A stretch of 61,942 nucleotides of DNA, the filler included, from Sphacelaria rigidula (Eukaryota): the NCBI GenBank assembly GCA_964200075.2. It is 5 parts of 5 records of this genome, joined end to end, with 100 filler letters (N's around TTAATTAATTAA, not from the genome) between each part and the next. Parts side by side here need not be neighbours in the genome. Positions count along the whole stretch, not along the records: positions 49,641 to 61,942 come from CAXNAA020003904.1; 4 more parts are not named here. One strand, 5' to 3'. Position 1 is the stretch's first letter. The number at the start of each line of letters is the position of its first letter. The notes below the pieces were generated by a model. The model did no database searches. It saw nothing but the letters and a program-made list of their open reading frames with translations, and was not told where the DNA came from. Of the stretch, positions 12,315 through 54,516 are shown piece after piece. The translations under genes and the position numbers were made by a program.

Positions 12315-12414
12315 NNNNNNNNNNNNNNNNNNNNNNNNNNNNNNNNNNNNNNNNNNNNTTAATTAATTAANNNNNNNNNNNNNNNNNNNNNNNNNNNNNN
12401 NNNNNNNNNNNNNN
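12315..12414. other. Artificial contig spacer (44 N + TTAATTAATTAA + 44 N)
   Basis: 100-bp N block with a linker that has stops in all six frames; identical structure at all four junctions. Confidence 0.97.
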
Positions 12415-13039
12415 ACTCTTTGTACGTTCAACACCTGCGCAACGGAGTGCAACAGCCAAATGATACATCATCCTCACGCTAGAAGGAAATAGGCACCCAA
12501 CACGTCTAAAACGCATCTGGCCACTTGCAACACCGTAGAAAACGTAAGCATCGCATGCCTCCCCGCCGTCAAAGCTTCAATGCTTCAACTTGCCATCATT
12601 TCATAAACGCATTCAAAGAAAAGCCATGACTCAAACCGCTATTCAAGTCATGCATACTGACCCAACGACGGCGAACGGACCTCGACCTCCGCCATCATTG
12701 ATCACCACTCGTGGTCTCGTTTTCGAACTCTGCAAATCCCAGATATTTCTACATCTCGTTTGGATCTTGGACCATCATATCCCATCCGTGCATCAGCCAA
12801 AATGTAGGAATATTGAATTCCTCGACACTCTTGCAGTCTACCTGCACCAGTTCTTCGAACAAATGGACGCATCATCCACATGCTCCTTCTGAAATGAATG
12901 AAAAACCAACCACGTGCTCGTTCAAACACGTAGCAATCCATACAAAAACGTGCCACGGTCAAAAATCATTGATTCATGCGCGCATAATGTCTTTATCTTC
13001 AACCATCGGAAGCACTTGCGTCATACCTGCTCACATACG

Positions 13040-13270
13040 ACGAGCCTTCGCATTTCGTATCTTTCAGCTCATTTTCACGCTAACAGCAGGTGTCATTGTA
13101 TCCTACAGTTTTTACGAGCCTACGCATTTCGTATTTTTTTGCGAACTTTCACGCTAACAACAGGTGCCACCGTATCGTACATTCAGTACAAACCTACGCA
13201 TTTCGTATCTGTCAGCTCTTTTTCACGCTAACAGCAGCAATCCACGTATCCCGCAGTCAGTACGAGCAAA
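13040..13270 (+). repeat. 74-bp tandem repeat, ~3 units
   Basis: ACGAGCC(T/A)CGCATTTCGTAT...TTTTCACGCTAACA(G/A)CAG units start at 13040, 13114, 13188 and 13262. Confidence 0.9.
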
Positions 13271-16200: not shown

Positions 16201-16304
16201 ATGGAACGAGTAACAGAGGTGCTGACTTCAACATAGCTGAATTTGACGACCGAAATCGTGTATGTTTACCACCCGTCAAAACAAGTGCACTCGTTAGTGT
16301 TTTT

Positions 16305-16800
16305 TTAGAACACCAAGCATGACTCGTATGCTGGAGTGGTTCATTTAAAAAAACGACGAGCATACCTGGTTTGCTCGAGTTACCGATTCTCTTCACCACG
16401 AGCAACGACTCGAGTGCTCGAGTCGTATATTTTTTCAACCAGGATCGATGACTCGTGTGCTCGAGTCATTTATTGTTTGACCCAGAAGCAATAAGTCGGG
16501 TGCTCGAGCTGTTCATTTTTTGAATCATAAACACTGATTCGTGTGCTCGAATCATTCATTGTTTTCTTCGCGAACAAGGACATTCTTTGAACTACCAGCA
16601 AATTCTCGTTCACTCCGACCGTTCATTTTTTGAATCACGAGCAATGAGTCGACTACTCGAGCTATTCATTTCTTCAACCACGACCAATGACTTGTGTACT
16701 GGAGTTTTTTTTATTATTTCCACCACGAGCGATGACTGGTTTGCTCGAGTAATTTTTTTTTTCCATCACGAGCTACTTACTCAGTTGCTGTTCATCAAGA
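16305..16800 (+). repeat. Degenerate ~43-bp minisatellite, ~11 units, with internal palindrome
   Basis: Consensus ~CAACCACGAGCAATGACTCGTGTGCTCGAGTCGTTCATTTTTT; CTCGAG/CTCGAA at ~16374, 16417, 16460, 16504, 16546. Confidence 0.85.
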
Positions 16801-18317
16801 TTCTCACCCGCAAGCTTTATTTTTACTGTGCGTCGCGCAACCCGAGGTTCGGTTCGTTGTGAAAGGCCTGCTCCCCGCTGGCCCGGAAGAAAGAATGAGA
16901 GCGGGGTGTACGTCAGACCTGATGGTCCGCACGGGAAGAACCACGACGCTGACTGCAGGCGAAAGTACCCTGGGTTGTCTCAATGCCTCGAAATTAGCGG
17001 CGTAAATCTTGACCCTCACGAGCAAGACAATTTCCTCCTGACTTTTACGTGCGTACGCTATCCACTATGACCTTAGAGGTCTTGACTTACTCTCTACGAG
17101 TCATTCACGAGATAGGCTACGAAGCCATCAACAGGGGAACCCTTACGAGGATCGTACGAAATAGTATGCACCACGGGAAGGGAGGGGTTGCTACGGTCTG
17201 TGCATTTGACATCTGGATCCGCGGACGGTGCTTTTGCAACTTCCCCTTGATGCGAATATTTGACCGCTTTGAGAGGGTTGATAGTCTCCTTGCGCGCGGT
17301 ACTTGTGCAGGGCCGGGGGGGGGGGCGCCGCTGGGATGCCATGTTTACTTCGACCCCGGCAAATGAGCGAATATGAACCAGTCATTTACATATGACAGTC
17401 GTTGTTCACCACCATCAGTTGCTCGGGGAGATCGTTTTCGGTTCGACCCTGGCAGATGGACCGGTATGATCCAGTGATTACACACGGCACTCGTTACCCA
17501 TCATCGGCACTTGTTCGGGAGCAATATTTTCGCACCCTGGCGAATAAAAGAAGAAGAGCAAGAGACCTTACACATGATACTCGTCGTTAACCATGGGCAC
17601 TTGGTCGGGGACATCATCTTTACTCAGACCTTGGAAGGTGAAAATATTCTAGGCACAGTATCTACACGTGACAATCGTTGTCCAGCACCAGCACTCGCTC
17701 GGAGACATCTTCGTTTATCTGACTCTGGCGGACGAAAAAAAATTAGCAGGTGATCTTACACATGACACGTTGGGTGTCATATCGGTCAACCAGCGTCACA
17801 TCGAGTGCGTATCTGACACACTGGAATGATTCGTTTCCCTTCCTATTTCACGCGGAAGGTATACATGACAATTAATAAGAGAAGAGACTTCTTGTCACTT
17901 GTTTACAGGTTAATTGATCCTCGCTTGTTGCTCTCTCGCATGTCTTGATCACCGATATCATGCTGAAACGAGCCGTCATATAACACATGCTGATTTTTCA
18001 TATTGATACAGTATTCCTAAATGTTCATACGTTGTGACCGTGCCAAGACGCCCCGCCAAGTACTTTCCTGTTGTCCACTTACTCGCTGCATCCCAACTCC
18101 CTAGGCGGCTATCCCTGCTGGCACCGTTCCCTGTGCTTGCGGCGCTGCCTGCGCTGCAGCAAACGACTGTATGTATGCCGTGTCTATTGTATTGTACTTC
18201 TCCCCTACCGTGGTGCAGTGCATGCACATTGCTACTAACATGGAAGTTTCTTTCTACCCGTGTCGTAGCTTTGCAACAGTGCACGATGTCTGAGCAGTCA
18301 GCTGGCAATGCTACTGT

Positions 18318-18545
18318 GGGGGTGCATTTTTTTTCGCAAAATCGTGTCTGGTTCAGTGGCTCGTAATGATTCAAGATGTACAAGAATATGGGTCAGGGCA
18401 TCCCCGTTTGGAAATTCCGTCGGGGGGTATCCCCAGCACATTGGAATAGGAATCCTGGCGTACTGTCACATATTTCATAAGTCGTATTTCCGAAGAGACG
18501 AAGGGCTCCTAAAAGTTTAACCTCAGAAAATATATGTGCACCCCT
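18318..18545. mobile_element. ~225-bp MITE with short TIR (GGGGTGCA...TGCACCCC)
   Basis: Terminal inverted repeat; second copy at 21054-21270. Confidence 0.75.
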
Positions 18546-19643
18546 CCCTACCGTAGCATCATTCCAGCAGCAATCCAGCTGCTACTACTGTACAACATCA
18601 TAGTCGGGTACCAGGTACGGTGGCTCAGTTGGTAACCCCCTTTATTCTGGACGCCAGTCTACACCTTTCGGAATATGTGGACGCATCAGCCGGGGTCACA
18701 CAAGAGGAAGGCCAACACTGGATCTTTTTCGTCTCATTTTATTTTAGTGCTCCACCTTCCTTCCGCGATGCTTTCCTTATTTTTCCATATCGAGACTGCG
18801 TTTAGCGGTTCTTTTCCCTCGTCGATCGTGAACTCGAGCATTGAAGCTTTGACGGCGGGGAGGCATGCGATGCATACGTTTTTTACGGTGTTGCAAGTGG
18901 CTAGATGCGTTTGAGACGTGTTGGGTGCTTATTCCCTTCTAGCGTGAAAATGGTGTATCGTTTGGCTGTTGCGCTCCGTTGCGCAGGTGTTGAACGTACA
19001 AAGAGTGCATTTTTTTTCAAGTCAAACCTTGTCTCGGATGAGAGGGATGACGAGTCACGAATGCTCTGGAGTTTGACGTTCGCTGACAATTCCCGTTCCG
19101 TGACGATGAAAAGTCAAGTGACTTATTTTGGGCGAAGATTTGAGAATTTGGCGCTACCTATCGCTTTGTAACTCGAAGTGGTGTGAGTAGCGTGATTGCA
19201 TGTTCATGATGGACAATATTTTCTTGGGATCTCCTGCGAGTTGTTCGGAAGTGGGGCAAGCTTGTATGGAGCTGTTGTCGAAAGCAGCGGAAGAGATTGC
19301 TATTCTTTGCGGAAAACGACAGTACTATCAGGCACCGATGATGTTTGAGTTTGTCAAGCTCTGATGTAACTACTTGTTGGTAGTATAGAGCTTTGGGGGT
19401 GCTGTAGACTCTAGCCACCACTGTTACTTAAGGTTAGGGACATTGTGTAGGTGTAGTTGCGGGTCTGATTGCCGGACTCTGTGATGGGTGACCTCCATGA
19501 CGTGTAGGCTTGGTTTTGCTACTCTGGTGGAGAGAGGCTATGATCCTGCTCTCCTGTACTATGCTGAGGGTTAATACATGAATAACTAAAGCTGCTGAAG
19601 TCCATGGGCCCGTGATGGGAGGAGTCCACACGGCAATCTGATC

Positions 19644-24725: not shown

Positions 24726-24825
24726 NNNNNNNNNNNNNNNNNNNNNNNNNNNNNNNNNNNNNNNNNNNNTTAATTAATTAANNNNNNNNNNNNNNNNNNN
24801 NNNNNNNNNNNNNNNNNNNNNNNNN
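24726..24825. other. Artificial contig spacer
   Basis: Same 44N-TTAATTAATTAA-44N structure. Confidence 0.97.
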
Positions 24826-27581: not shown

Positions 27582-27871
27582 CCCCCCCCCCCCGTTTTTC
27601 TACATTGCACATCTATTCTTCATCGGATAATCGGGACTTTAACCCTTTTGGGACCGGGCCTCGAGAACAACCAATGAGGCTGGTTAGAAATGACGCGTCT
27701 GGCGTCTGCACGAAACAGTGGCGTGTCCCCCCCCCCCGTTTTTTTTACATTGCACATCTTTTCTTCATCGGATAATCGGGACTTTAACCCTTTTGGGACC
27801 GGGCCTCGAGAACAACCAATGAGGCTGGTTAGAAATGACGCGTCTGGCGTCTGCACGAAACAGTGGCGTGT
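27582..27871 (+). repeat. Near-perfect tandem duplication, 2 x 145 bp, each unit starting with a C-run
   Basis: 27582-27726 and 27727-27871 differ by only a few bases. Confidence 0.95.
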
Positions 27872-37136: not shown

Positions 37137-37236
37137 NNNNNNNNNNNNNNNNNNNNNNNNNNNNNNNNNNNNNNNNNNNNTTAATTAATTAANNNNNNNN
37201 NNNNNNNNNNNNNNNNNNNNNNNNNNNNNNNNNNNN
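37137..37236. other. Artificial contig spacer
   Basis: Same 44N-TTAATTAATTAA-44N structure. Confidence 0.97.
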
Positions 37237-38193
37237 AGCGCACTTGTTGATATTCGCTGTCACTCTCCACTTCCTAGTGTATTCTAGCACCTTCTGGTGT
37301 CCCCGAAATTCCCACAAAATCATCCGCGAATATCAATCCTGATACCATATCTTCATCTACCTGAACCCCTTGCTTTGCTGCTTCTATTGCTATTATCGAG
37401 CCATTGATAAATACCTCGAACAAAGTGGGTGATAACGTACATCCTTGTGCAACCCCTTGTAAGATGTCGAAATCATTTCGATATTTCCCCGTCTAGCATC
37501 ATGGCAATTTTGGCACATTCTGTCATCTTCTTCACCATGCTCCACCTCTTTTCTCTGACCCCAGCTTCCCACAACTTTTTTCACGGCCCATTCCTCCATA
37601 CTGTGTCATACGCCTTTTGCGCGTCAAGAAAGAAACAGTACGTTGTCCGCCCGTTGTCTTTCCCACCCTGAATAATCTTACTTAGTNNNNNNNNNACATG
37701 GTCTACGCAACTACGGTTTGGTCTGAAACCTGCTTGTGCCTCGCTGACTTCGTCTTCTTTTTCTAGCATCGTTCCTCCTCTATCGTTCAGAATTTCACAG
37801 AACGGTTTCCCTACCGTGCTCAGTAGCGTTATCCCTCTCTAGTTTCCTGGGTCAGCATTGTGTCCTTTTTTAAAAGATTGACGGCTACTCCTTCTCTCCA
37901 CCTCTTGGGTGTGTACTCGTTTTCCCGGATCCAGTTGTACAGCATGACCATCATGGTAATCATTCCTTCTCCCCCGTACTTGAGGAATCCATTCACTATT
38001 CCGTGTGCCCCTGCTGCCTTTCTGTTCTTGAGGTTAGCCATGCACTCCTTTACTTCATCTATAGTAAACTCTCTCTGCAATTCTGGCAAGCCACTATCCT
38101 CCCGTTTCGACGTCTCTACATATGCCTTTGCCCACGCATCGATTTCTTGTTCGAATTCCTTGTCAAACTCCGTGATTGTTTCTGTTGTTCCTA
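37237..38193 (-). mobile_element. 5'-truncated non-LTR retrotransposon (LINE) ORF2, reverse transcriptase region
   Basis: EFTIDEVKECMANLKNRKAAG, QAGFRPNRSCVDH, FFLDAQKAYDTVWR, GVAQGCTLSPTLF and GLIFADD; cut by the contig end. Confidence 0.92.
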
Positions 38194-38930: not shown

Positions 38931-41900
38931 ATGCAAGTGATGGCCGCCTGGCACCACCACATCACGCAATACTCCGCCGCCCGACGCACCAAACGTTGCC
39001 TTTCTCTCCAGAAGCTGCTTGGTATCTTTCGCCAGGCCGTTGTCCCCCCTCACAATGAGACAGGGGCACTTTATTGCCTTCAAGTATGTAAGAGCTGACT
39101 CCTCGTTCAGATAGTCCGGGGAAGGTAGCCACAGTCTGCTGGGCATGCATAATCGGGGGGGGAGGGGGCATACTCATTTGTTGCTTGCCTCAGTCGTTTG
39201 ACCATTGACCACGCATCCCTTTCGAGACGGAGCACCGTTCCTACTCCTAGTGGAGACACCTTCAACATTCCGGCGCTCAATGCGTTTTTCCCATACATTA
39301 CACAAAACTTTTCACACATCTTATCCCCGTCCTGTTTTGTCGTGGGGGGGGGGGCGCACTCATTTGTTGCTTGCTTTTAGTCGTTTGACCATCGACCACG
39401 CATCCCTTCGAGACGGAGTACCGTTCCTACTTCTAATAGAGACACCTCCAGTACTTCGGCACTTTTTACGTTTCTTCCACACATTACACCAAAACCTTTT
39501 ACATATCTTATCCCCGTCCTGTTTCGCCGCCTGTGCCCACCATCTATCTCCTAGTATAGCCATCGTTTTCTCCCTACCGTCTGATGCATCAAACGATTTC
39601 ATGCCACCTTCGATCAGGCCCTGCATTCCCCCCTTTAGCACGTCCCATTCCTCCTTGTATAGTTCACATTCTGCCACTATATGAGTTTTACTCTTTATTC
39701 CTTTGCCATAGTGGTAATTCTATGCATTTACTTCCTCCTCCTTTCGACTACTGCTTAATATATTTCTTCCTTTTGGCAGGTTCAGGTCCCACACCCGAAA
39801 TCGTAGTTCCAATTTTTCCGCCGCGTCAATTGGGTTATGCAAAGATGTTTTCATCCCTATCCCCTCTCTCAACCACCCGTATATCTCCAGGTGTTCTTCC
39901 TCGTCTACCTTGCGTTTGGGCGCCGCCCCAGCGACAATGAGAAGCATATGTTTGTAACGTTTTCCCCCGGGCGGGCGCTTTGGATGGTTGTGTGTATGGG
40001 TACGGGAGAAGATGTTCCCCACGCTACAAACCAACTGGACGCGGCGCAATTATGACCTGCTCAATTTGGATACCACCTTGCGGCCCGATGAGTTTTCACG
40101 CTGTCTTTCACATGTTGTAACACCCCTCACCGAAGTGACAATATCTCGACACACACGACAGCTATGGAGACAAACCAAGTTGCTCTGTGTAGATAAAACG
40201 TGGCCTTCACTTCCTGGCGGCGTGGACCCTCGTCACAAAATAAAAAGTAGGGGTGACATAAACATCGTCAATTGCGGATTATGCACTATTCCAACGCTCA
40301 AATGGAGCCCGCTTGGGCTTGAACGACGCCTAGTGGCTGGTTCTACCCACCTTTACATTTTTGGCTTCGTTACATTCGTCAGTAGTCAGTAATCCTCTGT
40401 CGCGCGAAGGACCGGCATCTTGGAGAATGACTTTTTTTCGTTGTTCGAATAGTTACAACGTTTTGGAGGGGTATCCAGCGTTGATTTGTGAGCGGTACAG
40501 GGTGGAATTGAGTCAGACTGCGAGGAGAAGATAGCTACAGATGCATACAACAGCTGTGTGTCGCTTTCGTTGCATATAACGCTCTGTCCACTTGTTTGAC
40601 TCCGCCGCGTCTTCATTTTGGGGGTAGTGTTGGGAAACGTCACACCAACCCCCGGCGTAACACAGAGCGTGTTTTTGCGCTGCAATACAGTAAAGTATGA
40701 CAGGTTCCATAATGTTGCTACTTACCCGATTTCAACAGCTCCTGAACTTTGGTCTGGCGTTCAAAAGGGAGGTCCACTTCGATCAGAAACACGCCCACTA
40801 GTCAAATTCAAACCGCGGGATTCACCTTCATGGCAAATCGTCTCTGAGCTTTTGTCTCTCTAAAATACGGCCTGTTACATTTCGTTCAAAATCGGGCGCA
40901 ACTTTGAAGTTGAGCGCGTCCCGTAATAGTTGGTCTCATTCGTGCCCACAGCGAAATTGGAAAATATAGAATGCAGCTTGGGATTACCAACGCCGACTAA
41001 AACTCGTGGGATTAATATGGCTGAATAGGTTCGTACACGATGGAGCAAACACACCAATCGCGAGCATAGTAGTGGAGCTCAACGGCGCAGTAACAGGGAC
41101 ATATGCAAACGTACGGAGCGTACGAAGCGCCACAATTGGTACGGATGAGCAATCGTGCTCTCGCTTTTGAGTAGAAATTCATGGAGTTGAACAAGGTTGG
41201 TCTGACGAATATATCACCATATATGCACGGAATGAAAACTAGTACCATTGACGTACCGTTTGAAGCTACAATGACAGAGTTGCGAGGTAACGTGCAAGTG
41301 CAGCCCAGCCGTTTTTAACATTACTGTCTATACATGGCGTGCTCTCAATCCTTTTCAACGACTCGGGCACCGGGCATCCGTTCCGGGCGGACATTGCCCG
41401 CTGACGGCCCCCCAAAACAATTGAGGCGCGCCGGGGGGTGTTTGGGGAGGTGTCCGGGGACATGAGAGCTGTTTTTGAGAGCACCATGTTCCTATTATCG
41501 ATGTTTTACATCGTTTTGAGTGGGGGTATAGACCGAACTTTGGCACCATCATGGAATTGGCGCAAACGTATTTGACGCAGGTTCACATCGCGCTTGCCCC
41601 CCCTGTGGTACCAGGTGCCCGTGAAGCCGCTTGTGTGCAAAGGGCGTGGCCGCGTACCTGACATCATTGGTGAACTTGACTCGGCCGTCATTCCCGTACG
41701 GTTCGGAGCTCCCCGCCACCAAACGAGCCGCGCTGTCATAGCTTATTGTTTTCCCTCCTCCCAGGGAGAAAAGGCCTGAAAACGCACCGCACGATGGAGT
41801 TACGGAGATGTAAAAAAAATCGAAGCGTATGCTAGGTACTTACTTGCCAACAAGTTCCAATGAGTTTTCGCAACCAAAGCGACTGACGCATGAACGCAAG

Positions 41901-44900
41901 ACTTGCTGCGTGGACAGACCAGGCACCTCTTCCGCTTCCTCGAGCATCGCATTTGATTGGTGGCAAGCAAAATAGCCCAGACCATCAAACATGAGAACGC
42001 AGGAACGGAAATTGACATTGCGCATCTAGCAAGCACCCGTGACGCAAAAAAAGTGACGTATCTGGCAAGTGTGGTATCCGCTGACCGAGTATTCCTCACA
42101 TGGTAGGGGTTCATAGGACACATATTTTGACATGTTTGTTTGTCTGTGAATGTCTTTGTACGAACGATCGTGCCGTGGGGTTACCCGGTTACCGAATAGC
42201 AGGCGCGCTTCTCTAGTAGGTGATCCAGGTATTGTAGGCTATTTGATGACGATGAGCTATGTGCCATCATAGTGTTGTACAATTCCTCAACCGTGTTGTT
42301 CAATTCTTAGTTCAGCAAGCACTGGACTATATAATCTATCAAACTCCCGCTACTCATTTTGCGTACGACGGGCACACTAGTGAGGGATTGGGTGATCTCG
42401 TCTGGGGCAACAATACAACAACACGCTAGCGTGACAGTCGACCATGTGGTTGAGTACGGCTTCTACCATGTGGGGTAATGGGGAAGTAGAGCTGAGATCT
42501 GAGGACGATTTCCAAGAAGAGGGGGGTCGATGTAAGGACAGATCTCCGGCAACGTTTATGGCGCAGATTTCGAATCAAGATGCAATCCTGATATATCTCA
42601 CCGAAGCGGTACAGCGGATAAAACGAGAGACGGGGCGCCGCCGCACAGGTCGAGGAGGTGGTGGGGTGGAGGAGACAGCGGATTGGGACAGTGCAAGCGC
42701 TCCAACTCAGACTACTAGGCGCCGGGTCATTGCGTCATCATGCTTTGGTGCAAGTGGCACAATGCTCGGTGGATCTTCCGATCTTGGATCGCCGCACGCA
42801 GGAAGGGGGGTAGAAGCTACGCGCACACACCCATCAGGGTCTTGCACCCATGATCCAGGAGGTGGTACCACGCTGGGACCTGGTGCAGTAGATCGGCATA
42901 CTCAGGAGGCCAGGCGGAAGCTACGGTCACACACTCATCATGTGATTGCGTCCCTGATTCAATGGGTGGCACCGGACTAGAGCCTGGTAGAACACGTGAG
43001 GCTAAGTTGGGACTTGGTTCTGTGTATGGCGCTGGGTTGGGATAGCCAAGAACAGAGATGGACGATGTTGATGGTGCGCGCAGGCAAGGTGGAATATTGG
43101 CACCCCCGGTCTCTTGGAAACACGAGGATATATTATCAAGAACAACGCCTGGTCTCAATTCAAGCGACGAGTAGGGAGGTATGCAGGATTGGTTGGGTTT
43201 CACGGTGCTCTGTTCTTCACCGTGCTCTGTTCAGGTAACGACACTGCGTTGCACAATGATGAGGAGGCACCTGTGGACTCGGGTGAATTCATGAGAGAGG
43301 TTAATGAAGCAACGTTCGCGCAATATTTATTGGATCATGTGACAAGGAATGAGGTATCGAATCACACAATTACCATGGCAGGGTCCCCTTCTGGTGGATG
43401 GACGGAACTTGACAAGCACTATCCCAGAACAATTGATACAGGGACATATATTGGGAACGCTCATAGCAATAAAGCACTTTCGCGGGTCTGCCTCCGTAGC
43501 AAAGCGTGAGCGTATTCATGCTCGAGGTGCCATTCGGGGACAAGTTTTCCCCGGCCACTTTGTAGTTGATATGTGTCTGTAGGTCCGTCCTTCTGATCAC
43601 TCGGCTGTGAAAGACAATCTCGGAATGGAGATGAATCTTTCTATAGAGAGGCGACTCCGTCATCAGGGATACGCGTCTATTTCCGAAGATATCTGACGGT
43701 GAAAAGAGGGGTGACTACAGCTACGCACTGTTTGCGTGAAGCGGCCAACACTCCACCCCGGGCAGGGGGCGTGAGAGCAAGACCGTAAAGCATCACAAAG
43801 GTGCACCTAGCGCTGGCAAGATACAGGTAACACCCACAACGGGGGGGCTTTCAGCATCGGTTTGTGAGTCGAAGGGACCCGCGAATGGAGAGAAGGGACT
43901 CACGATCGATCTGCGTTTCGACTGCAACACGCTGCGGTATTTGCGCGCCTCTTACCCTGATTGCGTACCTCCTCAGTGAGGGGGTAAGGGGCACGGGGTA
44001 AGCTTGCGCAAGAATTTGGCCATGTGCATACTGGATGAGTCCAGAAAAATCGTGAAGTTGGCTTCTTGGCCGTTGAATCTACATAATGCGGGTGTGCGTC
44101 CGGCATGGAGACTTCGGGGGGCGGACCTGAAATGGTGAGGGTGAGGTTTGGATCGCGGATAGTAGTGCGATAGCGCGCAAGGGTCAGTCGAGTAAACACA
44201 TGGTGGATTGTAAGAAGTGTAAAAACAACTTTGTGGCGCTCGCCAAAAGACAGGTGGCCTCGGTTGCCAAGGGCGGGAAGGTGTGCGTCTTGATTGTGGG
44301 TCATGGCGTAAAGTTCAAGATATGCCGAAGTAGTGTGTCCCACGTACCCGAGCTAGGCGTAAACCTGCTCTCACTACAACGAGTGGCTAGACCCGAGCTG
44401 CCAATCAGCTTGTGGGATGTTGAAATTGTGATCACGACTCGAGCTGAGCAAGATCCTTTGTGTCCAAAGGTACACCGATGGGACATTTTGACGGTCAGGC
44501 CTTCCATCGCCACCTGGTTCACCTGGTATCCCTGGAGACGGACCCGATGCGCCCACGACATCCCAAGCCCCTTAACAAAATGGTCATCAGTCCTGACAAG
44601 GTGAGCATGCACCTGTTTCACCAATCATATCTCATTATCACGAGATTTGTTTACGCAAAAAATCGACACAACTAGGTTCTCCTCTGATGGAAGAGCTGTC
44701 GGAGTGCAAGGAATGCCCTCTGGGCCGGCGGTTTCGCAAACACATCTCTACGTCAACTGATACACGTGGACTGCAGCTTCTGGACAAAGTGTTCATATAC
44801 GAATTTTGATGCCTAAACAATAGAGAGTGTTGGAAGGGACGAACTACTCTGTATATAAGATCTGGATCCAATTAGGCCTAGACAAGTCGAATATCCCTGT

Positions 44901-49540: not shown

Positions 49541-49640
49541 NNNNNNNNNNNNNNNNNNNNNNNNNNNNNNNNNNNNNNNNNNNNTTAATTAATTAANNNN
49601 NNNNNNNNNNNNNNNNNNNNNNNNNNNNNNNNNNNNNNNN
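49541..49640. other. Artificial contig spacer
   Basis: Same 44N-TTAATTAATTAA-44N structure. Confidence 0.97.
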
Positions 49641-49702
49641 GGAATCGAACCCCCGTTCTCTCCACCCTAATGGCGACAGTCGGACCATTACACCACTGGT
49701 GC
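49641..49702 (-). pseudogene. tRNA-like sequence (tRNA-Gly-like 5' end); tRNA pseudogene or SINE head, cut by contig end
   Basis: GCACCAGTGGTGTAATGG...GGGGGTTCGATTCC has good A and B boxes, but the anticodon arm is irregular and the 3' acceptor strand is missing. Confidence 0.55.
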
Positions 49703-51882
49703 GCGGCATCATTTCCCTTTATTTCAGGAAATTATGGCATGTTTCATATCAGGTATCTGGAGCAGGGGGATATCTTTGATCCGTCGAAAGTGTTGAACAC
49801 TCATGCGGCATGGACAAGCATGTTCATTTCTCTCGCTTGCTTTGAAAAATACACTGAGCGCACGCGTCAAGAGTAAACGCGACAAACGCAATGCCGCCCG
49901 CCCGATCATCAATACTGCATTGCGTCAAGGTGATCGGCACACGTCCTTCGGTCTCGCGCTTGCCGAACATGCAGCATGCGTTGCTCTTTGTGACCACAGC
50001 ACCGCGTGGTGATGCATACTGGGTGTGCTCAAAAGTACCGTCACTTTGTGCAATGCCAGTCGTGAACACTAGACGAAACTTAGATGCGGATTTTATGTGC
50101 AAGTGTCTTACATTTCTCATGATTGAACTGTGACGTTTTCCATCTATTCACATCGTATGTGCGTCTCACATCGTACATGCTGTTCACGTCGCACATTTCT
50201 TGGATTGGGGAACTATGGTTCGGTGTTGCATGCACCCTCTTCAAAACGACAGTTAACATCACACCATGTCATGCCGGCGAGCGCTCGGTGATATGTTCAT
50301 ATGCTCCGCCTTTTGGGTGCCTGTGAGAAGGGCGTGCTCTGTGCAGGTAGATTTCATCATTAATCCCATCAAAAGTAACAATATATTTTCCGAGAATAAC
50401 CAAATGCTCCTGTTCCGTTGTTCGATGGGGTTGCTCTGTATTACTTCGTACAGTGGGAATCCCACCATAGTGCAGTAAACATTGCTTGTCCTATTTGTCA
50501 TTATTCCTATCCGTTAAATTACTTAAAGAAGCTCCACTTCACCAGTATAGTGCAGGGATCAACCATAGTGCGGTGATGTTGGAGCTTGGATCCACCGTAC
50601 TCTGCTGAGACCCCCAACGGGACGTATTGTCTGTGCCCAGGATAGCGTTTAAAATATGCTGGGATAGCTGAAACATGTGCATCATACATCACTGTGTTGA
50701 TGTGTCGATAGTCCTGCAGCAGGTGAAGATCTACACCTTTGCCTGTCGTGAGTTCGTCTCTTATTGGCGAGGGGCTCCCCTTCTTTCTCATACGGTGTCT
50801 CGTTGAAGTAGTCTTCACGGGCTTACAGCTACTCAAGAATAGCTGTACAGGGTCGCCCTCACACCTTGTGTAGTTCATTTACGCTAGACAAACGTATACA
50901 GACTCGCTAAACCTTATCCGGGTGGTGTACAGGGTGCGGTCTGCACAGGTATAAGTCATATAAGCACAGCACTTGCCACATTGCGCCAAACTGTACCGTT
51001 GCCTTTGAATTCACGGCAAGCGCAGTGTCCATGCGGGGACACCATATAATACCCCATCAAGCACGACTGATGTGGCGTCGTATGTGTAGTCTCACCACTG
51101 TAGCTTCTGAACATCAGCGACAGCCGCGGCAGAACACAGCACAGCGGCTCATTGGTACCATTACAATGATGAAAATCCGGTGCCTTTGCGTATAGAATCC
51201 CTTGTGAAACCTGTCTTACATGCGATCAGAAGTCATGCTGATCCAGTACAAACACCAGAGACAAATCAAGTCGCGGGGAGTGAATGCTTCTTTTCCATGA
51301 CGGCGCGTAGCTGACAAGGGTTTGGAAACATCTCACCGCCGATGCACGGACCGTGTTGCGATAGTGCATCTGGGAGTCGCCGTCTTGACCTGGGGTGCTG
51401 TGCAAGTTGGAATACGTTGCCGACGATGTTTGGGACACTGCTGCTATTTTGTGCAACGAGGAATACCCAGCCGAAAAGAACATGGCCTGGACCATGTATC
51501 CGCTGTTGCCTTCGCACGCCGGCGTGTGTCTGCTGAACCTTGTCCAGCCGATATCGATGCATGGACCGTGTGCCCCAAGTGCGTCTCGGCGTTCTCGTGG
51601 TATATGGTGCCATTTAGATGCTTCATTCGCTTTCGATCCCAACTGCAGTAGCGTCCAGGATGTCCCGTTCGCTAGAACTCTCTCGCGAGTGGTGCTGCAG
51701 TTGTTACGGTCAGTTTCCATGTAGCGTCGTCTGAGTTGAATGCAGGCACCCTTTTGAGGGGGGGGAGTATGTACCCCCAACAATGGTGCCGATCGTTCTG
51801 CACAGCATTCCACATCGCTTTCACACATAGCTCACGGTAGCCTTCCCGCCGGTTTGGCATTTGTCCTCCTGTGAGCAGTTAG

Positions 51883-54516
51883 TCTTCGAAGAAGCACCAC
51901 GCGAAGGACCTGACGGCCGACGTCGCAGAAGAAAGGTGCATCGCCAAGGGCTGCTCCGAGCCGCCATATCACGGTGCACAGGGCTACACGGCGGAGTTCT
52001 ACTTCAAACATGCGACGGCGAGAGGGGTGAATGTAAAGAACAAGTGCGGTGACGAGGGCTGCTTCTTCAGGCCGTCTCAAAGAGTAGATGGAGGCGAGGA
52101 GACGGAGTTCTGCTCTGGGCACGCTAGGGCGAGGATGGTGAACGTTGTGAACAAGAGGTGCGGCGACGAGGGCTGCTCGAAACATCCGTCGTATGGTGTC
52201 GTAGGAAGCAAGAAGGCGGAGTTCTGCTTCGAGCATGCCATGGCGGGGATGGTGGACGTGAGAAGCAAGAAGTGTGGTTACGAGGGCTGCTCAAAGCAGT
52301 CGTCCTATAGTGTAGTGGGAAACAAGGAGGCGGAATTCTGCTGTGAGCATGCCAGGGCGGGAATGGGGAATGTTGTGAATAAGAGGTGCGGCGACGAGGG
52401 CTTCTCAAGGAATGCGTCGTTTGGTGTAGTGGGAAGGGAAAAAGCGGAGTTTTGCTCCAAGCATGCCAGGGCGGGGATGGTGGACGTGAGAAGCAAGAAG
52501 TGCGGCTACGAGGGCTGCTCGAAACATCCGTCTTTCGGTTTAGTGGGAAGCAAGAAGGCGGCGTTCTGCTCCAAGCATGCCATGCCGGAGATGGTGGACT
52601 TGAGCAGCAAGGAGTACGGCTACGAGAGCTGCTCAAAGCAGACGTCTCATGTTGTAGTGGGAAACAAGAAGGCGGAGCTCTGCTCCAAGCATGCCATGGC
52701 GGGGTTGGTGAATGTTGCGAGCAAGAGGTGTGCCCACGAGGGCTGCTCCACTCAGGCATCGTTTGGTTTAATGGGCAGCGAGAAGGCAGAGTTCTGCTCC
52801 AAGCATGTCATGGCGGAGATGGTGAATGTTGTGCACAAGATGTGCGGCCACGAGGGCTGCTCGAAACGTCCGTCTTTCGGTGTAGCAGCAAGCAAGAAAG
52901 CGGAGTTCTGCTCCAAGCATGCCATGGCGGGGATGGGGAATGTGGTGAGGGTAACATGCTGCTACGAGGGCTGCTCGAAACATCCGTCTTTCGGTGTAGT
53001 GGGAAGCAAAAAGGCGGAGTTCTGCTCCAAGCATGCCAGGGCGGGGATGGTGGATGTGAGAAGCAAGAAGTGCGGCTACCGGGGCTGCTCCAAGACTCCG
53101 TCGTATGGTGTAGTGGGAAGCAAGAAGGCGGAGTTCTGCGCCAAGCATGCCGTGGCGGGGATGGTGAATGTTGTGAACAAGAGGTGCGGCTACGAGGGCT
53201 GCTCGAAGCATCCGTCTTTCGGTGTAGCGGGAAGCAAGGCGGAGTTCTGCTCCAAGCATGCCTCCGCGGGGATGGTGAATGTCCGAGTTGGTAAGTGCGG
53301 CTACGGGGGTTGCTCAAAGCGGCCGTCGTTTGGTGTAGTGGGAAGCAAGAAGGCGGAGGTCTGCTTTGAGCATGTCAGGGCGGGGATGGTGTATATTTTG
53401 CACAAGAGGTGCGGCTACGAGGGCTGCTCGAAACATCCGTCTTTCGGTGTAGTGGGAAGCAAGAAGGCGGAGGTCTGCTCCAAGCATGCCAGGCCAGGGA
53501 TGGTGGACATGAAAAATAAGAAGTGCGGCTACGAGGGTTGCTCTTCTCAGGCGTCTTATGGAATAGCTGGAAGCAAGACGCGAAAGTACTGCTTCGAGCA
53601 TGCCAGGGCGGGAAGGATGGAAGTTGTGAGCAAGAAGTGCGGCTACGAGGGCTGCTCCACTCAGGCGTCTTATGGTTTAGTGGGAAGCAAGAAGGCGCAG
53701 TTCTGCTTTGAGCATGCCAGGGCGGAAATGGTGGATATGGTGAACAATAACTACAGCTTTGAGGGATGCTTCAACAGGCGGTCGTACGGTGTCGCGGGTA
53801 GCGCAAAGGCAAAGCCCTGCTCTAAGCATGCCAAGGCGGGAGTGCTGAATATGGGGAGCAAAAGCTGTAGTGACGTGGCGTGCTCCGAATGGACTATCCA
53901 CAAGAAGCACGACGTTGATGAAGCGACATTCTGCCGAGAACACGCTACTGCACGTAACACAGCTGCGATGTCTGATACCGCGAAGCTCAACATTGGGGAG
54001 GGCGTCCCCGGCCGTGGCCCGACGGAGGCCAGTGGAGAAAGTGTTGCTGATGTACGAGGAACGAAACGCAACCGCGCAGCGCTCTCGGGTCCTGTTGCAA
54101 ACGACTCTGTTGGTGCTCGCCGCAATGCCGATGCCGGTCCCAGGCAGGGTGTAAGAACGCCGTTGCTTTCGGGATGCCCAGTTTCGAGGACTGGTGGAAA
54201 GGTGACTTTTGGGACAAGAGCAGAAGTAGGGATGAAGGTAGAGGTGGTAGGCCCTTCTCCTACTCACAGTGGCGATGGGATGAGGGAGTGTCGTAAGTTG
54301 TCTGCCTCTTCGAGCAGCTGCAGTAACGCGTGTGGTGGTAGTGGCTTTGTCAGCAGTGGTGGTAAAAGTAATGGGCAGATCTATAGCTCGCCGGCAATGG
54401 TACCTGGACGCCTGGGCGAACTTGATTATGCGATGTTCGAAGAGGCAAAGAAGGATTCGAACGTGAAGTTGGAGCTAGAAGTGTCCAGAGCGTATCCTCC
54501 GGCACCCGAAGCATGA
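51883..54516 (+). CDS. EsV-1-7 cysteine-rich repeat protein (~18 tandem 38-aa C-x4-C-x16-C-x2-H repeats plus low-complexity C-terminal tail)
   Basis: ORF 52027-54516 consists of repeats such as KCGYEGCSKHPSFGVVGSKKAEFCSKHARAGMVDVRSK, which match the EsV-1-7 motif of brown algae and phaeoviruses. The frame stays open upstream to 51883 (SSKKHHAKDLTADVAEERCIAKGCSEPPYHG...), just after a pyrimidine tract and TTAG, so this is probably a large terminal exon. The first in-frame ATG is 52135. True start not determined. Confidence 0.9.
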   Translation, partial: SSKKHHAKDLTADVAEERCIAKGCSEPPYHGAQGYTAEFYFKHATARGVNVKNKCGDEGCFFRPSQRVDGGEETEFCSGHARARMVNVVNKRCGDEGCSKHPSYGVVGSKKAEFCFEHAMAGMVDVRSKKCGYEGCSKQSSYSVVGNKEAEFCCEHARAGMGNVVNKRCGDEGFSRNASFGVVGREKAEFCSKHARAGMVDVRSKKCGYEGCSKHPSFGLVGSKKAAFCSKHAMPEMVDLSSKEYGYESCSKQTSHVVVGNKKAELCSKHAMAGLVNVASKRCAHEGCSTQASFGLMGSEKAEFCSKHVMAEMVNVVHKMCGHEGCSKRPSFGVAASKKAEFCSKHAMAGMGNVVRVTCCYEGCSKHPSFGVVGSKKAEFCSKHARAGMVDVRSKKCGYRGCSKTPSYGVVGSKKAEFCAKHAVAGMVNVVNKRCGYEGCSKHPSFGVAGSKAEFCSKHASAGMVNVRVGKCGYGGCSKRPSFGVVGSKKAEVCFEHVRAGMVYILHKRCGYEGCSKHPSFGVVGSKKAEVCSKHARPGMVDMKNKKCGYEGCSSQASYGIAGSKTRKYCFEHARAGRMEVVSKKCGYEGCSTQASYGLVGSKKAQFCFEHARAEMVDMVNNNYSFEGCFNRRSYGVAGSAKAKPCSKHAKAGVLNMGSKSCSDVACSEWTIHKKHDVDEATFCREHATARNTAAMSDTAKLNIGEGVPGRGPTEASGESVADVRGTKRNRAALSGPVANDSVGARRNADAGPRQGVRTPLLSGCPVSRTGGKVTFGTRAEVGMKVEVVGPSPTHSGDGMRECRKLSASSSSCSNACGGSGFVSSGGKSNGQIYSSPAMVPGRLGELDYAMFEEAKKDSNVKLELEVSRAYPPAPEA
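51934..53943 (+). repeat. Coding tandem array, 114-bp unit, ~18 copies
   Basis: Recurrent TGCGGCTACGAGGGCTGCTC...GCGGAGTTCTGCTCCAAGCATGCC at ~114-bp spacing. One internal unit is 111 bp (in-frame 3-bp deletion, GSKAEF). Confidence 0.95.

What the first reader, a model, noticed from the sequence alone, without database searches (positions are those of the whole stretch)
51883..54516. EsV-1-7 array with a fixed scaffold and hypervariable positions: candidate modular, TALE/zinc-finger-like nucleic-acid reader
Seen: ~18 head-to-tail 38-aa repeats keep the frame C-G-x-E-G-C-S-[xxx]-S-[YF]-G-V-V-G-S-K-K-A-E-F-C-x-x-H-A-x-A-G-M-V-[ND]-V-[xx]-K almost constant. Variation concentrates in the triplet after the second Cys-Ser (KHP, KQS, RNA, KHP, KQT, TQA, KRP, KHP, KTP, KHP, KRP, KHP, SQA, TQA, NRR) and in the inter-repeat linker (VVNK, VRSK, LSSK, VASK, VVHK, VVRV, VRVG, ILHK, MKNK). 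The varying residues (H, Q, R, N, T) are typical base-contacting residues, and the terminal repeats are degenerate, like capping repeats. Established: EsV-1-7 repeats are a Cys/His motif expanded in brown algae (e.g. IMMEDIATE UPRIGHT) and found in phaeoviruses; to my knowledge no ligand or recognition code is established. Inference: each repeat may read a short DNA/RNA unit, making the family a recombination-reprogrammable sequence reader analogous to KRAB-ZNF, PRDM9 or TALE arrays, possibly aimed at transposons or viruses.
Basis: partly seen in the sequence, partly recalled or inferred. Interest (0 to 1): 0.8.

Follow-up and report, generated by a model that had tools for sequence, protein, structure and literature searches.

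The report
Long EsV-1-7 zinc-finger repeat gene
This is an intact brown-alga gene for a long chain of small zinc-finger-like repeats from a known, functionally unexplained family; it probably binds DNA, but nothing found here shows a TALE-like reading code.

Summary
The repeats are real. There are 18 head-to-tail units of 38 aa at 51937-53979. Pfam EsV_1_7_cys matches 17 stretches (E 2.5e-216).

"Fixed scaffold, hypervariable positions" is overstated:
- 34 of 38 positions vary.
- The seven named positions hold 34% of the entropy, against 18% if it were spread evenly.
- Their dN/dS is about neutral (0.67-1.14), against 0.42-0.44 for the rest.

The first in-frame ATG is at 52135, so repeats 1-2 are probably untranslated relics. 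The predicted protein has 793 aa: 16 repeats plus a tail shared with Sphacelaria rigidula paralogues.

AlphaFold models are confident (pLDDT 92 and 88), lack long helices, and match no solved fold.

The best support for DNA binding comes from relatives. 53 of 117 long homologues, on giant-virus-type contigs, end in a probable PD-(D/E)XK nuclease domain. A paper reports an Ectocarpus transposase with an N-terminal EsV-1-7 domain.

Verdict: a new, unusually long member of a known family. DNA binding is plausible; a modular code is untested and gains no support from the selection tests.

The parts
51876..51878 (+). CAG, probable splice acceptor; the exon would start at 51879
   Evidence: Sequence read. 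Contigs of three runs of one study (kind guessed RNA) leave the window at 51877/51878 and continue with letters not found in the window. A contig of run X1 runs straight through 51719-51895. This is a weak hint; paralogues could give the same picture.
51879..52134 (+). Probable 5' untranslated part of the exon. It holds relic repeat 1 (51937-52044) and most of relic repeat 2 (52045-52158).
   Evidence: In-frame TAG at 51880-51882, and no in-frame ATG before 52135. Three short out-of-frame ATGs open frames of 1-17 codons. Repeat 1 is 36 aa with the third Cys replaced by Tyr. Both relics are only 59-74% identical in DNA to repeats 3-17.
52135..54516 (+). Predicted coding sequence: 793 aa plus stop. 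It has an 8-aa leader, 16 EsV-1-7 repeats and a tail.
   Evidence: First in-frame ATG, with A at -3 and G at +4. The S. rigidula paralogue models P0002 and P0003 start at the equivalent Met of a repeat. Pfam PF19114 E 2.5e-216.
52159..53865 (+). Repeats 3-17: fifteen units of 38 aa (repeat 12 is 37 aa), each C-X4-C-X16-C-X2-H.
   Evidence: DNA identity among repeats 3-16 is 67-91%. Two lineages stand out: A = repeats 3, 5, 6, 9, 10, 12, 14 and B = repeats 4, 7, 11, 13, 16.
52387..52500 (+). Repeat 5, second Cys replaced by Phe
52615..52728 (+). Repeat 7, first Cys replaced by Tyr
53752..53865 (+). Repeat 17, first Cys replaced by Tyr; diverged (61-69% DNA identity to repeats 3-16)
53866..53979 (+). 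Repeat 18, a degenerate terminal repeat that keeps all four ligands
   Evidence: It aligns with the last repeat of S. rigidula P0003 as part of the tail match.
53980..54513 (+). C-terminal tail of 178 aa with no Pfam domain, shared with S. rigidula paralogues
   Evidence: Repeat 18 plus tail is 47% identical to P0003 over 210 aa, E 3e-43. No Pfam family at E up to 1.
54064..54075 (+). Basic patch K-R-N-R, inside a stretch conserved in paralogues; possible nuclear localisation signal (inference)
   Evidence: Reading it as a localisation signal is my inference; no predictor was run.

Best explanation
The locus is a maintained nuclear gene of a brown alga; the closest database proteins are from Sphacelaria rigidula. 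[quoted passage not shown]

Shown:
- 18 tandem 38-aa units lie in one 877-codon open frame.
- The predicted protein, from ATG 52135, has 16 units plus a 178-aa tail shared with paralogues.
- Each unit is predicted with high confidence as a small strand-and-loop module carrying C1, C6, C23 and H26.

Inferred:
- Each unit binds one zinc ion.
- Strand 31-33 and the basic K37/K-R38 link consecutive units into an extended, positively charged rod.
- The array grew by recent tandem duplication and unequal exchange of one- to three-repeat blocks, which is why positions that vary across the family are uniform here.
- The positions that differ between repeats (9, 35, 36, 38, then 8, 10, 28, 33) are the least constrained loop and linker positions and drift at about the neutral rate.
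- The most likely activity is zinc-dependent binding of nucleic acid, probably DNA, in the nucleus. Many weak, similar modules would add up, possibly on repetitive targets.

A one-repeat-one-unit code is possible but has no support yet.
For: Family and anatomy:
- Pfam PF19114, 17 stretches, E 2.5e-216.
- Tandem period of 114 nt.
- 18 units, with all four ligands present in 14 of 18.

The frame is maintained:
- 877 codons are open, against at most 254 elsewhere in the window.
- Divergence between repeats is dS 0.45-0.65, yet there are only two in-frame length changes.
- dN/dS is 0.42-0.44 on the 31 scaffold codons.
- The tail is conserved with P0003 (47% over 210 aa, E 3e-43).

Start codon: the first in-frame ATG is 52135, in a good context. 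P0002 and P0003 start at the same repeat position.

Fold:
- The 6-repeat model has pLDDT 91.8 and pTM 0.57. The 2-repeat model has pLDDT 88.0.
- Every unit shows strands at 12-14 and 31-33. The 6-repeat model also shows a bridge at 22 in every unit and a 3-residue helix at 24-26 in four of six units. There is no helix of 4 or more residues.

Young array:
- 10 of 15 repeats have their nearest neighbour inside the array.
- Positions 2, 3, 4, 7, 14, 15 and 17 exceed 3 bits across the family but are nearly uniform here.

Near-neutral variable sites: triplet dN/dS 0.87-1.14, linker 0.67-0.69.

Nucleic-acid link:
- The array is basic, net +43, pI 9.2. K37 is conserved in 83% of 471 family repeats, followed by R/K at 38.
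- 53 of 117 homologues have a C-terminal domain with invariant D, E-x-D-E, H and R...N-P-D.
- That domain's weak best hits are all PD-(D/E)XK nucleases: Pfam Hjc E 0.14; PDB 1gef E 1.2 with the catalytic columns aligned; PHROG 'homing endonuclease' E 8e-4 in 1 of 10 proteins scanned; Atlas PvuRts1I_N 0.86-0.89 and DUF559 0.86.
- HA domains occur in P0049, E 2.2e-17.
- The Ectocarpus transposase TcMar-2_Ec32 has an N-terminal EsV-1-7 domain (PMC12477816, passage read).
Against: - There is no direct evidence of zinc or nucleic-acid binding for any family member in the papers I could read. The founding paper (Macaisne 2017) is not held.
- The window protein has no nuclease, transposase or other effector domain, so the argument from fused relatives is by association only.
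- The nuclease assignment rests on sub-threshold matches. hhalign to E. coli Vsr covered 16 columns at probability 3.7%.
- The weak structural rows are RING, LIM, PHD and nsp13 zinc-binding domains; by my recollection most of these bind proteins.
- 3 of the 16 translated repeats lack a zinc ligand, whereas the ligands are 96-100% conserved in 471 family repeats. That sample is biased towards intact repeats.
- Scaffold dN/dS reaches 0.74 among the five lineage-B repeats, so constraint on single repeats is loose.
- Net charge per repeat is only about +2.7.
Confidence: 0.55

Rival explanations
1. Each repeat reads a short DNA or RNA unit through residues 8-10 (and perhaps 35-38) on an otherwise fixed scaffold. 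Shuffling repeats would then reprogramme specificity, as in TALE, PRDM9 or KRAB-ZNF arrays.
For: - Position 9 ranks first, and 35 and 36 rank second and third, in mean within-array entropy over 51 family proteins with 5 or more repeats: 1.73, 1.62 and 1.57 bits.
- In paralogue P0004 the backbone is close to uniform while positions 8-10 change from repeat to repeat.
- The residues at position 9 here are H, Q, R, N and T.
- Among the five lineage-B repeats, pN/pS is 1.82 at the triplet and 1.57 at the linker.
- Repeat number differs between paralogues, with 5-7 near-full repeats counted in P0002-P0004 against 15 in the window's array (repeats 3-17). A 342-nt higher-order period is also present.
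- In the viral clade each repeat keeps its own residues between orthologues (pN 0.15 against pS 0.72), as expected if repeats are not interchangeable.
Against: - Variation is graded. The next positions in within-array entropy (7, 2, 11, 14) reach 1.25-1.40 bits.
- In the window 34 of 38 positions vary, and the seven named ones hold only 34% of the entropy.
- dN/dS over all core repeats is 0.87-1.14 (triplet) and 0.67-0.69 (linker), although the sites were picked for being variable. In lineage A the values are 0.60 and 0.59. The lineage-B values rest on 3-4 codons in 5 repeats, and I ran no significance test.
- His at position 9 goes with Asp at 33 in 4 of 5 repeats, so the states are partly inherited as blocks.
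- In the viral orthologues, position 9 is also among the fastest between orthologues (pN 0.30). Variability within the array correlates with low constraint (rho 0.61, p 8e-5).
- The fold is not a helical solenoid.
Confidence: 0.12
2. The array is a zinc-stabilised scaffold for protein-protein interaction, like LIM, RING, PHD or B-box modules. The basic residues and the variable loops would then serve partner binding, not nucleic-acid binding.
For: - No DNA-binding family appears in Pfam for the window protein.
- The one family member with a known mutant phenotype, IMM, still has unknown biochemistry (PMC7457493, passage read).
Against: - All those structural matches are far below significance.
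- Fusion partners in the family are nucleic-acid enzymes or modules: a probable nuclease in 53 of 117 homologues, HA domains, and a transposase. In those architectures the array sits where a targeting domain would be expected (inference).
Confidence: 0.2
3. The locus is a decaying or functionless product of runaway tandem duplication in a very large gene family. Its open frame would simply reflect youth.
For: - There is no ATG at the start of the open frame.
- 4 of 18 repeats have lost a ligand.
- Overall dN/dS between repeats is about 0.5, and 0.90 in lineage B.
- A preprint describes the family as behaving like young, peripheral genes (10.64898/2026.04.27.720984, passages read).
Against: - 877 codons stay open despite dS 0.45-0.65 between repeats, with only in-frame length changes.
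- Scaffold codons are under purifying selection, 0.42-0.44.
- The tail and the terminal repeat are conserved with paralogues.
- The start at a repeat Met is shared with annotated paralogues.
- Contigs of three runs guessed to be RNA match 51946-52160 with no differences.
Confidence: 0.08

Closest known systems
EsV-1-7 domain proteins of brown algae (Pfam PF19114; includes Ectocarpus IMMEDIATE UPRIGHT)
   Same: The repeat motif and ligand spacing are the same, the repeats are tandem, and the host is a brown alga. Best hits are S. rigidula, Scytosiphon and Ectocarpus proteins. The family is described as greatly expanded (2018 members in 31 genomes) and as possibly a new zinc-finger class (10.1101/2024.02.19.579948, passages read).
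   Different: It has 18 repeats (16 predicted as translated). By my repeat model no homologue among the 115 with a hit has more than 11, and Pfam counts 12 in P0020. Only proteins of 482-1535 aa were searched. By that preprint's description IMM has five repeats and a unique N-terminal domain; the predicted window protein has only an 8-aa leader. I did not compare it with IMM's sequence.
Giant-virus-type EsV-1-7 arrays with a C-terminal PD-(D/E)XK-like domain (P0048 group; IMG/VR loci L001-L022)
   Same: Same repeat family, with 7-10 repeats detected per protein and a similar 38-aa period.
   Different: They carry a domain of about 140 aa with invariant D, E-x-D-E, H and R...N-P-D that the window protein lacks. 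Their repeats differ from one another at about 20 positions and are conserved between orthologues (pN/pS under 0.5). The gene sits in the same neighbourhood in nine loci.
TALE repeats (Xanthomonas effectors)
   Same: Tandem repeats of similar length (34 against 38 aa), with some positions more variable than others. The TALE facts are recalled.
   Different: TALE repeats are two-helix units that are nearly identical except for two residues (recalled). Here the units are zinc-type modules without long helices, 34 of 38 positions vary, and no base contacts are known.
C2H2 zinc-finger arrays (KRAB-ZNF, PRDM9)
   Same: Tandem Cys/His modules joined by a conserved basic linker, in a basic array, within a family that expands in tandem clusters.
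   Different: The ligand order and spacing differ (C-C-C-H with 4/16/2 gaps). There is no recognition helix in the model, no C2H2 Pfam hit, no KRAB or SET effector domain, and no excess of non-synonymous change at candidate contact positions.
Treble-clef zinc fingers (GATA, ArfGAP, RING, LIM types)
   Same: As I recall this fold, it has a zinc knuckle, then a hairpin, then the last two ligands at the start of a short helix, with about 16-17 residues between the ligand pairs. ArfGAP fingers aligned over 27 residues at 2.8-3.1 A rmsd and 22-26% identity.

Membership tests
EsV-1-7 cysteine-rich repeat family (PF19114) | Match to the Pfam model above its gathering score | tested here: met
   699.6 bits against a cut-off of 25; 17 stretches; E 2.5e-216
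EsV-1-7 cysteine-rich repeat family (PF19114) | C-X4-C-X16-C-X2-H ligand pattern in each repeat | tested here: met
   Complete in 14 of 18 repeats. One ligand is replaced in repeats 1, 5, 7 and 17. Repeats 1 and 12 have 15 rather than 16 residues between the second and third ligand positions.
EsV-1-7 cysteine-rich repeat family (PF19114) | Zinc coordination by the four ligands | not testable with these tools
IMMEDIATE UPRIGHT orthologue | IMM-specific N-terminal domain before the repeats (criterion used in 10.1101/2024.02.19.579948) | not tested
   No IMM sequence was fetched. The predicted window protein has only 8 residues before the first repeat, which argues against orthology.
TALE-like modular reader | Near-identical repeats with variation confined to a few positions | tested here: not met
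   34 of 38 positions vary. Scaffold pairwise identity is 0.68. The seven named positions hold 34% of the entropy.
TALE-like modular reader | Helical solenoid repeat fold | tested here: not met
   The AlphaFold models have short strands and no helix of 4 or more residues.
TALE-like modular reader | One repeat contacts one base or short unit of nucleic acid | not testable with these tools
   No tool here models nucleic acid, and no binding data exist in the papers searched.
C2H2 / KRAB-ZNF / PRDM9-type array | C2H2 finger motif and fold | tested here: not met
   No C2H2 family in Pfam at E up to 0.01. The ligand pattern is C-C-C-H with different spacing.
C2H2 / KRAB-ZNF / PRDM9-type array | Excess non-synonymous change at specificity positions | tested here: inconclusive
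   Triplet dN/dS is 0.87-1.14 and linker 0.67-0.69 over all repeats. It exceeds 1 only in five lineage-B repeats, on 3-4 codons. The counts are pairwise; no site model was run.
C2H2 / KRAB-ZNF / PRDM9-type array | Effector domain (KRAB, SET or similar) | tested here: not met
   The tail has no Pfam family at E up to 1.
Treble-clef zinc fingers | Structural similarity to solved members | tested here: inconclusive
Nuclease-fused EsV-1-7 proteins (viral type) | C-terminal domain with D ... E-x-D-E-x-x-H ... R-x-N-P-D | tested here: not met
   The motif is found in 53 of 117 homologues but not in the window protein. The window tail instead matches S. rigidula tails.

The most novel reading that the evidence does not exclude
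EsV-1-7 repeats are a modular DNA-recognition unit not yet described as such. Giant viruses would string 8-12 different units together to aim a PD-(D/E)XK nuclease, making a natural 'finger-nuclease'. Brown algae would have kept nuclease-free arrays as nuclear regulators, or as competitors for the same kind of target. In young arrays such as this one, residues in the 8-10 loop and the linker would be where specificity is being re-set by duplication and exchange of repeats.
Probability: 0.15. Interest if true: 0.85.

Novelty: new member of a known kind. Interest (0 to 1): 0.45.

Why it matters
A 2026 preprint reports EsV-1-7 proteins as the largest orthogroup across brown-algal genomes. The family includes one developmental regulator, IMM, yet no ligand is known.

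This locus adds a very long, recently amplified array. It shows which repeat positions are free to change and which are held.

The more useful result is the link to relatives that carry a probable nuclease. A cleavage assay on those proteins would read out directly whether, and how specifically, the repeats bind DNA. That would make the family's open question testable. If a code existed it would be a new programmable DNA-binding scaffold. If not, the family is an ordinary multi-finger binder.

Tried and rejected
- **Whole genome.** None is held for this window, so paralogues and alleles could not be compared at DNA level.
- **Earlier notes of this scan.** Searches by words, by sequence and by place returned nothing.
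- **Other copies in the window.** A six-frame search with a repeat model found none outside 51937-53979.
- **Tree-based counts of changes per site.** I used pairwise Nei-Gojobori counts instead. Pairs are not independent, and exchange between repeats blurs the counts.
- **Surface mapping of the variable residues.** Only secondary structure could be used.
- **Sequence profiles against PDB.** The array-plus-homologues profile gave only chance rows. The C-terminal-domain profile gave Hjc at E 1.2.
- **NCBIfam** gave nothing relevant for 10 nuclease-type homologues.
- **PHROGs** gave one relevant row in 10 proteins.
- **hhalign of the viral C-terminal domain against E. coli Vsr** aligned 16 columns at probability 3.7%.
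- **Pfam DUF559 search in the viral records.** The records are not held.
- **Sequencing runs.** No RNA holder is listed.
- **Contig cover upstream of the exon.** In the three runs guessed to be RNA, most of 49725-51824 has little or no contig cover, while 51877-52160 is covered. Absence of cover is not evidence, and contig depth cannot rank parts of a gene.
- **Upstream exon.** The 30 letters that those contigs carry before 51877 occur nowhere in the window at up to 3 mismatches, so it was not located. It may lie outside the window, in a masked stretch, or belong to paralogues.
- **Mobility of the viral nuclease-type gene.** Rejected for the one clade examined, where flanks are homologous in all nine loci that had flanks.
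- **Papers.** The founding family paper (Macaisne 2017) is not held. The supplements of the two bioRxiv preprints, including the EsV-1-7 gene table S17, were not opened; they may hold repeat counts and gene models that bear on how unusual 18 repeats is. Searches for 'EsV-1-7' with 'nuclease' and with 'DNA-binding' gave 3 papers each. Going by their listings and the passages I read, none links the domain to a nuclease fusion or reports binding data.


Full report
**What is there**

The window looks like eukaryotic nuclear DNA. Apart from this locus, no stop-to-stop frame exceeds 254 aa. GC content is about 0.49 throughout and rises to 0.56 over the array. No whole genome is held.

At 51883-54516 on the + strand one frame stays open for 877 codons. 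Tandem Repeats Finder reports a 114-nt period with 14.5 copies, 77% matches and 1% indels at 52103-53747, plus a 342-nt period over the same stretch. Pfam's EsV_1_7_cys model (PF19114) matches 17 stretches at E 2.5e-216.

Parsing by the Cys/His pattern gives 18 units at 51937-53979. Sixteen are 38 aa, repeat 1 is 36 aa and repeat 12 is 37 aa. The ligand pattern is C-X4-C-X16-C-X2-H. A six-frame search with a model of these repeats finds no further copy anywhere in the window.

**Checking the observation**

Among repeats 3-16 entropy peaks at positions 35 and 38 (2.13 bits), 9 (2.01) and 36 (1.99). Next come positions 33, 28, 10 and 24 at about 1.5 bits.

The contrast is moderate, not TALE-like:
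- Only positions 7, 11, 23 and 26 are invariant, and 34 of 38 positions vary.
- Mean pairwise identity is 0.68 over the 31 'scaffold' positions and 0.35 over the seven 'variable' ones.
- Those seven hold 34% of the total entropy, against 18% if it were spread evenly.
- They hold 38% of pairwise non-synonymous differences and 24% of synonymous ones.

One zinc ligand is replaced in repeats 1, 5, 7 and 17.

**Gene structure**

The open frame has a TAG at 51880-51882 and no ATG until 52135. That ATG has A at -3 and G at +4. It encodes the conserved Met at position 31 of repeat 2. The S. rigidula models P0002 and P0003 begin at the same repeat position.

The predicted product is therefore 793 aa: an 8-aa leader, repeats 3-18 and a 178-aa tail. 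The two most degenerate N-terminal repeats are probably relics in the 5' untranslated region, not caps.

A CAG lies at 51876-51878. Contigs from three runs of one study, whose kind is only guessed to be RNA, leave the window's sequence at 51877/51878. They continue with letters that occur nowhere in the window. A contig of a fourth run passes straight through. I read this as a weak hint of a splice acceptor; paralogues could produce the same picture. The same three runs contain contigs identical to 51946-52160.

Repeat 18 and the tail align with P0003 at 47% identity over 210 aa (E 3e-43). The alignment includes a conserved basic patch, K-R-N-R here. Pfam finds nothing in the tail.

**How the repeats evolve**

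DNA identity among repeats 3-16 is 67-91%. Two lineages stand out: A (repeats 3, 5, 6, 9, 10, 12, 14) and B (repeats 4, 7, 11, 13, 16). They are interleaved without a strict higher-order pattern; identity by lag is flat at 0.75-0.77.

Ten of the 15 repeats 3-17 have their nearest neighbour inside the array. Five are nearest to repeats of S. rigidula paralogues. This fits local amplification with some exchange.

Pairwise Nei-Gojobori dN/dS:

| Comparison | Triplet 8-10 | Linker 35-38 | Other 31 codons |
|---|---|---|---|
| All repeat sets | 0.87-1.14 | 0.67-0.69 | 0.42-0.44 |
| Within lineage A | 0.60 | 0.59 | 0.47 |
| Within lineage B (five repeats) | 1.82 | 1.57 | 0.74 |

Synonymous divergence between repeats is 0.45-0.65. 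The lineage-B values rest on three or four codons in five repeats.

So the named positions change at about the neutral rate even though they were chosen for being variable. I see no convincing excess. Their states are also partly inherited as blocks: His at position 9 goes with Asp at 33 in 4 of 5 repeats. Tree-based counts per site were not available.

**The family at large**

A search of proteins of 482-1535 aa returned 117 homologues, the best from S. rigidula, Scytosiphon and Ectocarpus. My repeat model finds 634 repeats in 115 of them, with at most 11 per protein. Pfam counts 12 in P0020. The window's 18 is the most I saw in that length band.

Over 471 near-complete repeats:
- The ligands are 96-100% conserved.
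- G5, P10, F/Y12, G13, G16, F/Y22, G30, M31, V32, N/D33, V34 and K37 are well conserved.
- Thirteen positions exceed 3 bits: 2, 3, 4, 7, 9, 14, 15, 17, 24, 25, 28, 29 and 35.

Many of those 13 positions are nearly uniform in the window's array. This points to recent common origin of its repeats, not to a functionally fixed scaffold.

Within single proteins (51 with five or more repeats), mean entropy is highest at positions 9, 35 and 36 (1.73, 1.62, 1.57 bits). Positions 7, 2, 11 and 14 follow at 1.25-1.40 bits.

**An older array for comparison**

Nine orthologous loci on IMG/VR viral contigs encode a protein with seven to ten detected repeats and 75-92% identity to the query. Their synonymous sites are saturated (pS about 0.72).
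- pN/pS is below 0.5 at every repeat position.
- The fastest positions between orthologues are 3, 4, 7, 25 and 9.
- Within that array, repeats differ at about 20 positions.
- Within-array entropy correlates with divergence between orthologues (rho 0.61, p 8e-5).

Variable positions thus look like the less constrained ones. Each repeat also keeps its own residues between orthologues, so repeats are not interchangeable copies.

**Structure**

The AlphaFold2 model of repeats 8-13 has mean pLDDT 91.8 and pTM 0.57. The model of repeats 10-11 has pLDDT 88.0. Every unit shows a strand at 12-14 and a strand at 31-33. The six-repeat model also shows a bridge at 22 in every unit and a three-residue helix at 24-26 in four of six units. 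There is no longer helix.

The knuckle-hairpin-helix-start arrangement of the ligands resembles treble-clef fingers, as I recall that fold. No search gave a significant match:
- Foldseek best E was 1.3 and 2.3. The rows were nsp13 zinc-binding domain, LIM, PHD, RING and ArfGAP fingers.

I could not test whether the variable residues share one face.

**Why I favour nucleic-acid binding**

- The array is basic: net +43 over 607 aa, pI 9.2. Conserved K37 and R/K38 sit between units.
- 53 of 117 homologues end in a domain with an R-P-D ... E-x-D-E-x-x-H ... R-x-N-P-D pattern. The pattern search hit 54; I set aside one hit by eye.
- In an alignment of 13 such domains, D33, E46, D48, E49, H52, R63, R80, N82, P83 and D84 are invariant.
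- Every weak best match to that domain lies in the PD-(D/E)XK nuclease clan:
  - Pfam Hjc at E 0.14, in 1 of 6 proteins scanned.
  - PDB 1gef, a Holliday junction resolvase, at E 1.2. Its D ... E-x-K columns sit over the invariant D ... E-x-D.
  - PHROG 'homing endonuclease' at E 8e-4, in 1 of 10 proteins.
  - Language-model neighbours PvuRts1I-like nuclease domain (0.86-0.89) and DUF559 (0.86), for two different proteins.
- hhalign to E. coli Vsr covered only 16 columns around its R-P-D-F segment, at probability 3.7%. I rate the nuclease assignment probable, not shown.
- These proteins occur on viral contigs, four of them named as giant-virus bins.
- P0049 carries helicase-associated HA domains.
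- A paper reports an Ectocarpus Tc1/mariner transposase with an N-terminal EsV-1-7 domain (PMC12477816, passage read).

In such architectures the repeat array sits where a targeting domain is expected. That is an inference by association, and the window protein itself has no such partner domain.

**What is known**

The family is well described as greatly expanded in brown algae: 2018 proteins in 31 genomes, often in tandem gene clusters. [quoted passage not shown] It has been hypothesised to consist of zinc-finger transcription factors (PMC12629598, passage read). A 2026 preprint finds the genes behaving like young, peripheral genes (10.64898/2026.04.27.720984, passages read).

I found no report of a ligand, a structure or a nuclease fusion in the held library. 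The founding paper is not held, and the preprints' supplements were not opened.

**Verdict**

This is a genuine, maintained and unusually long member of a known family. Its uniform 'scaffold' reflects recent amplification. Its variable positions are the least constrained loop and linker sites. DNA binding is the most likely activity, at about even odds. A TALE-like code remains an open, testable idea, at about one in eight.

Noticed in passing
Homologues P0008-P0116; loci L001-L022 (for example L001:4312-4746): About 45% (53 of 117) of long EsV-1-7 homologues, on giant-virus-type contigs, end in a conserved domain of about 140 aa. It has invariant D, E-x-D-E, H and R-x-N-P-D. Its weak best matches are all PD-(D/E)XK nucleases (Hjc, PvuRts1I-like, DUF559, a 'homing endonuclease' PHROG). 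Pfam has no model for it.
   Followed up: partly
window 51825-51992: In run X1 the summed contig depth over the first ~115-170 nt of the exon is several times that of neighbouring bins. Several contigs there carry a few differences. Near-identical paralogues seem to share this 5' part.
   Followed up: no
window 49641-49724: Extremely high summed contig depth in all four runs laid (13,000-19,000 in three, about 844,000 in X1). This looks like the edge of a very high-copy element next to a masked stretch.
   Followed up: no
window 12315-12414, 24726-24825, 37137-37236, 49541-49640 (and 37687-37695): Runs of N in a 44 + 12 letters + 44 pattern recur about every 12,411 bases, which looks like regular masking, not assembly gaps. 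The upstream exon of the gene could be hidden in one.
   Followed up: no
window 44131-44604 (+): An open frame with a Pfam Pol_BBD match (E 5.8e-7): a retrotransposon polyprotein fragment about 7.5 kb upstream of the gene. Five other long frames tested had no Pfam match.
   Followed up: partly
Family members P0013, P0014, P0041, P0099: Pfam Zf_WRKY19 (PF24906), named after a land-plant protein, co-matches EsV-1-7 repeats in 4 of 90 family members scanned (best E 9.8e-9). It may be related to the EsV-1-7 motif, although the family is said to be absent from land plants.
   Followed up: no
window 27583-27871 and 39153-39524: Two-copy tandem repeats of 145 nt (97% matches) and 186 nt (83% matches), each beginning with a long homopolymer run. 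Not examined further.
   Followed up: no
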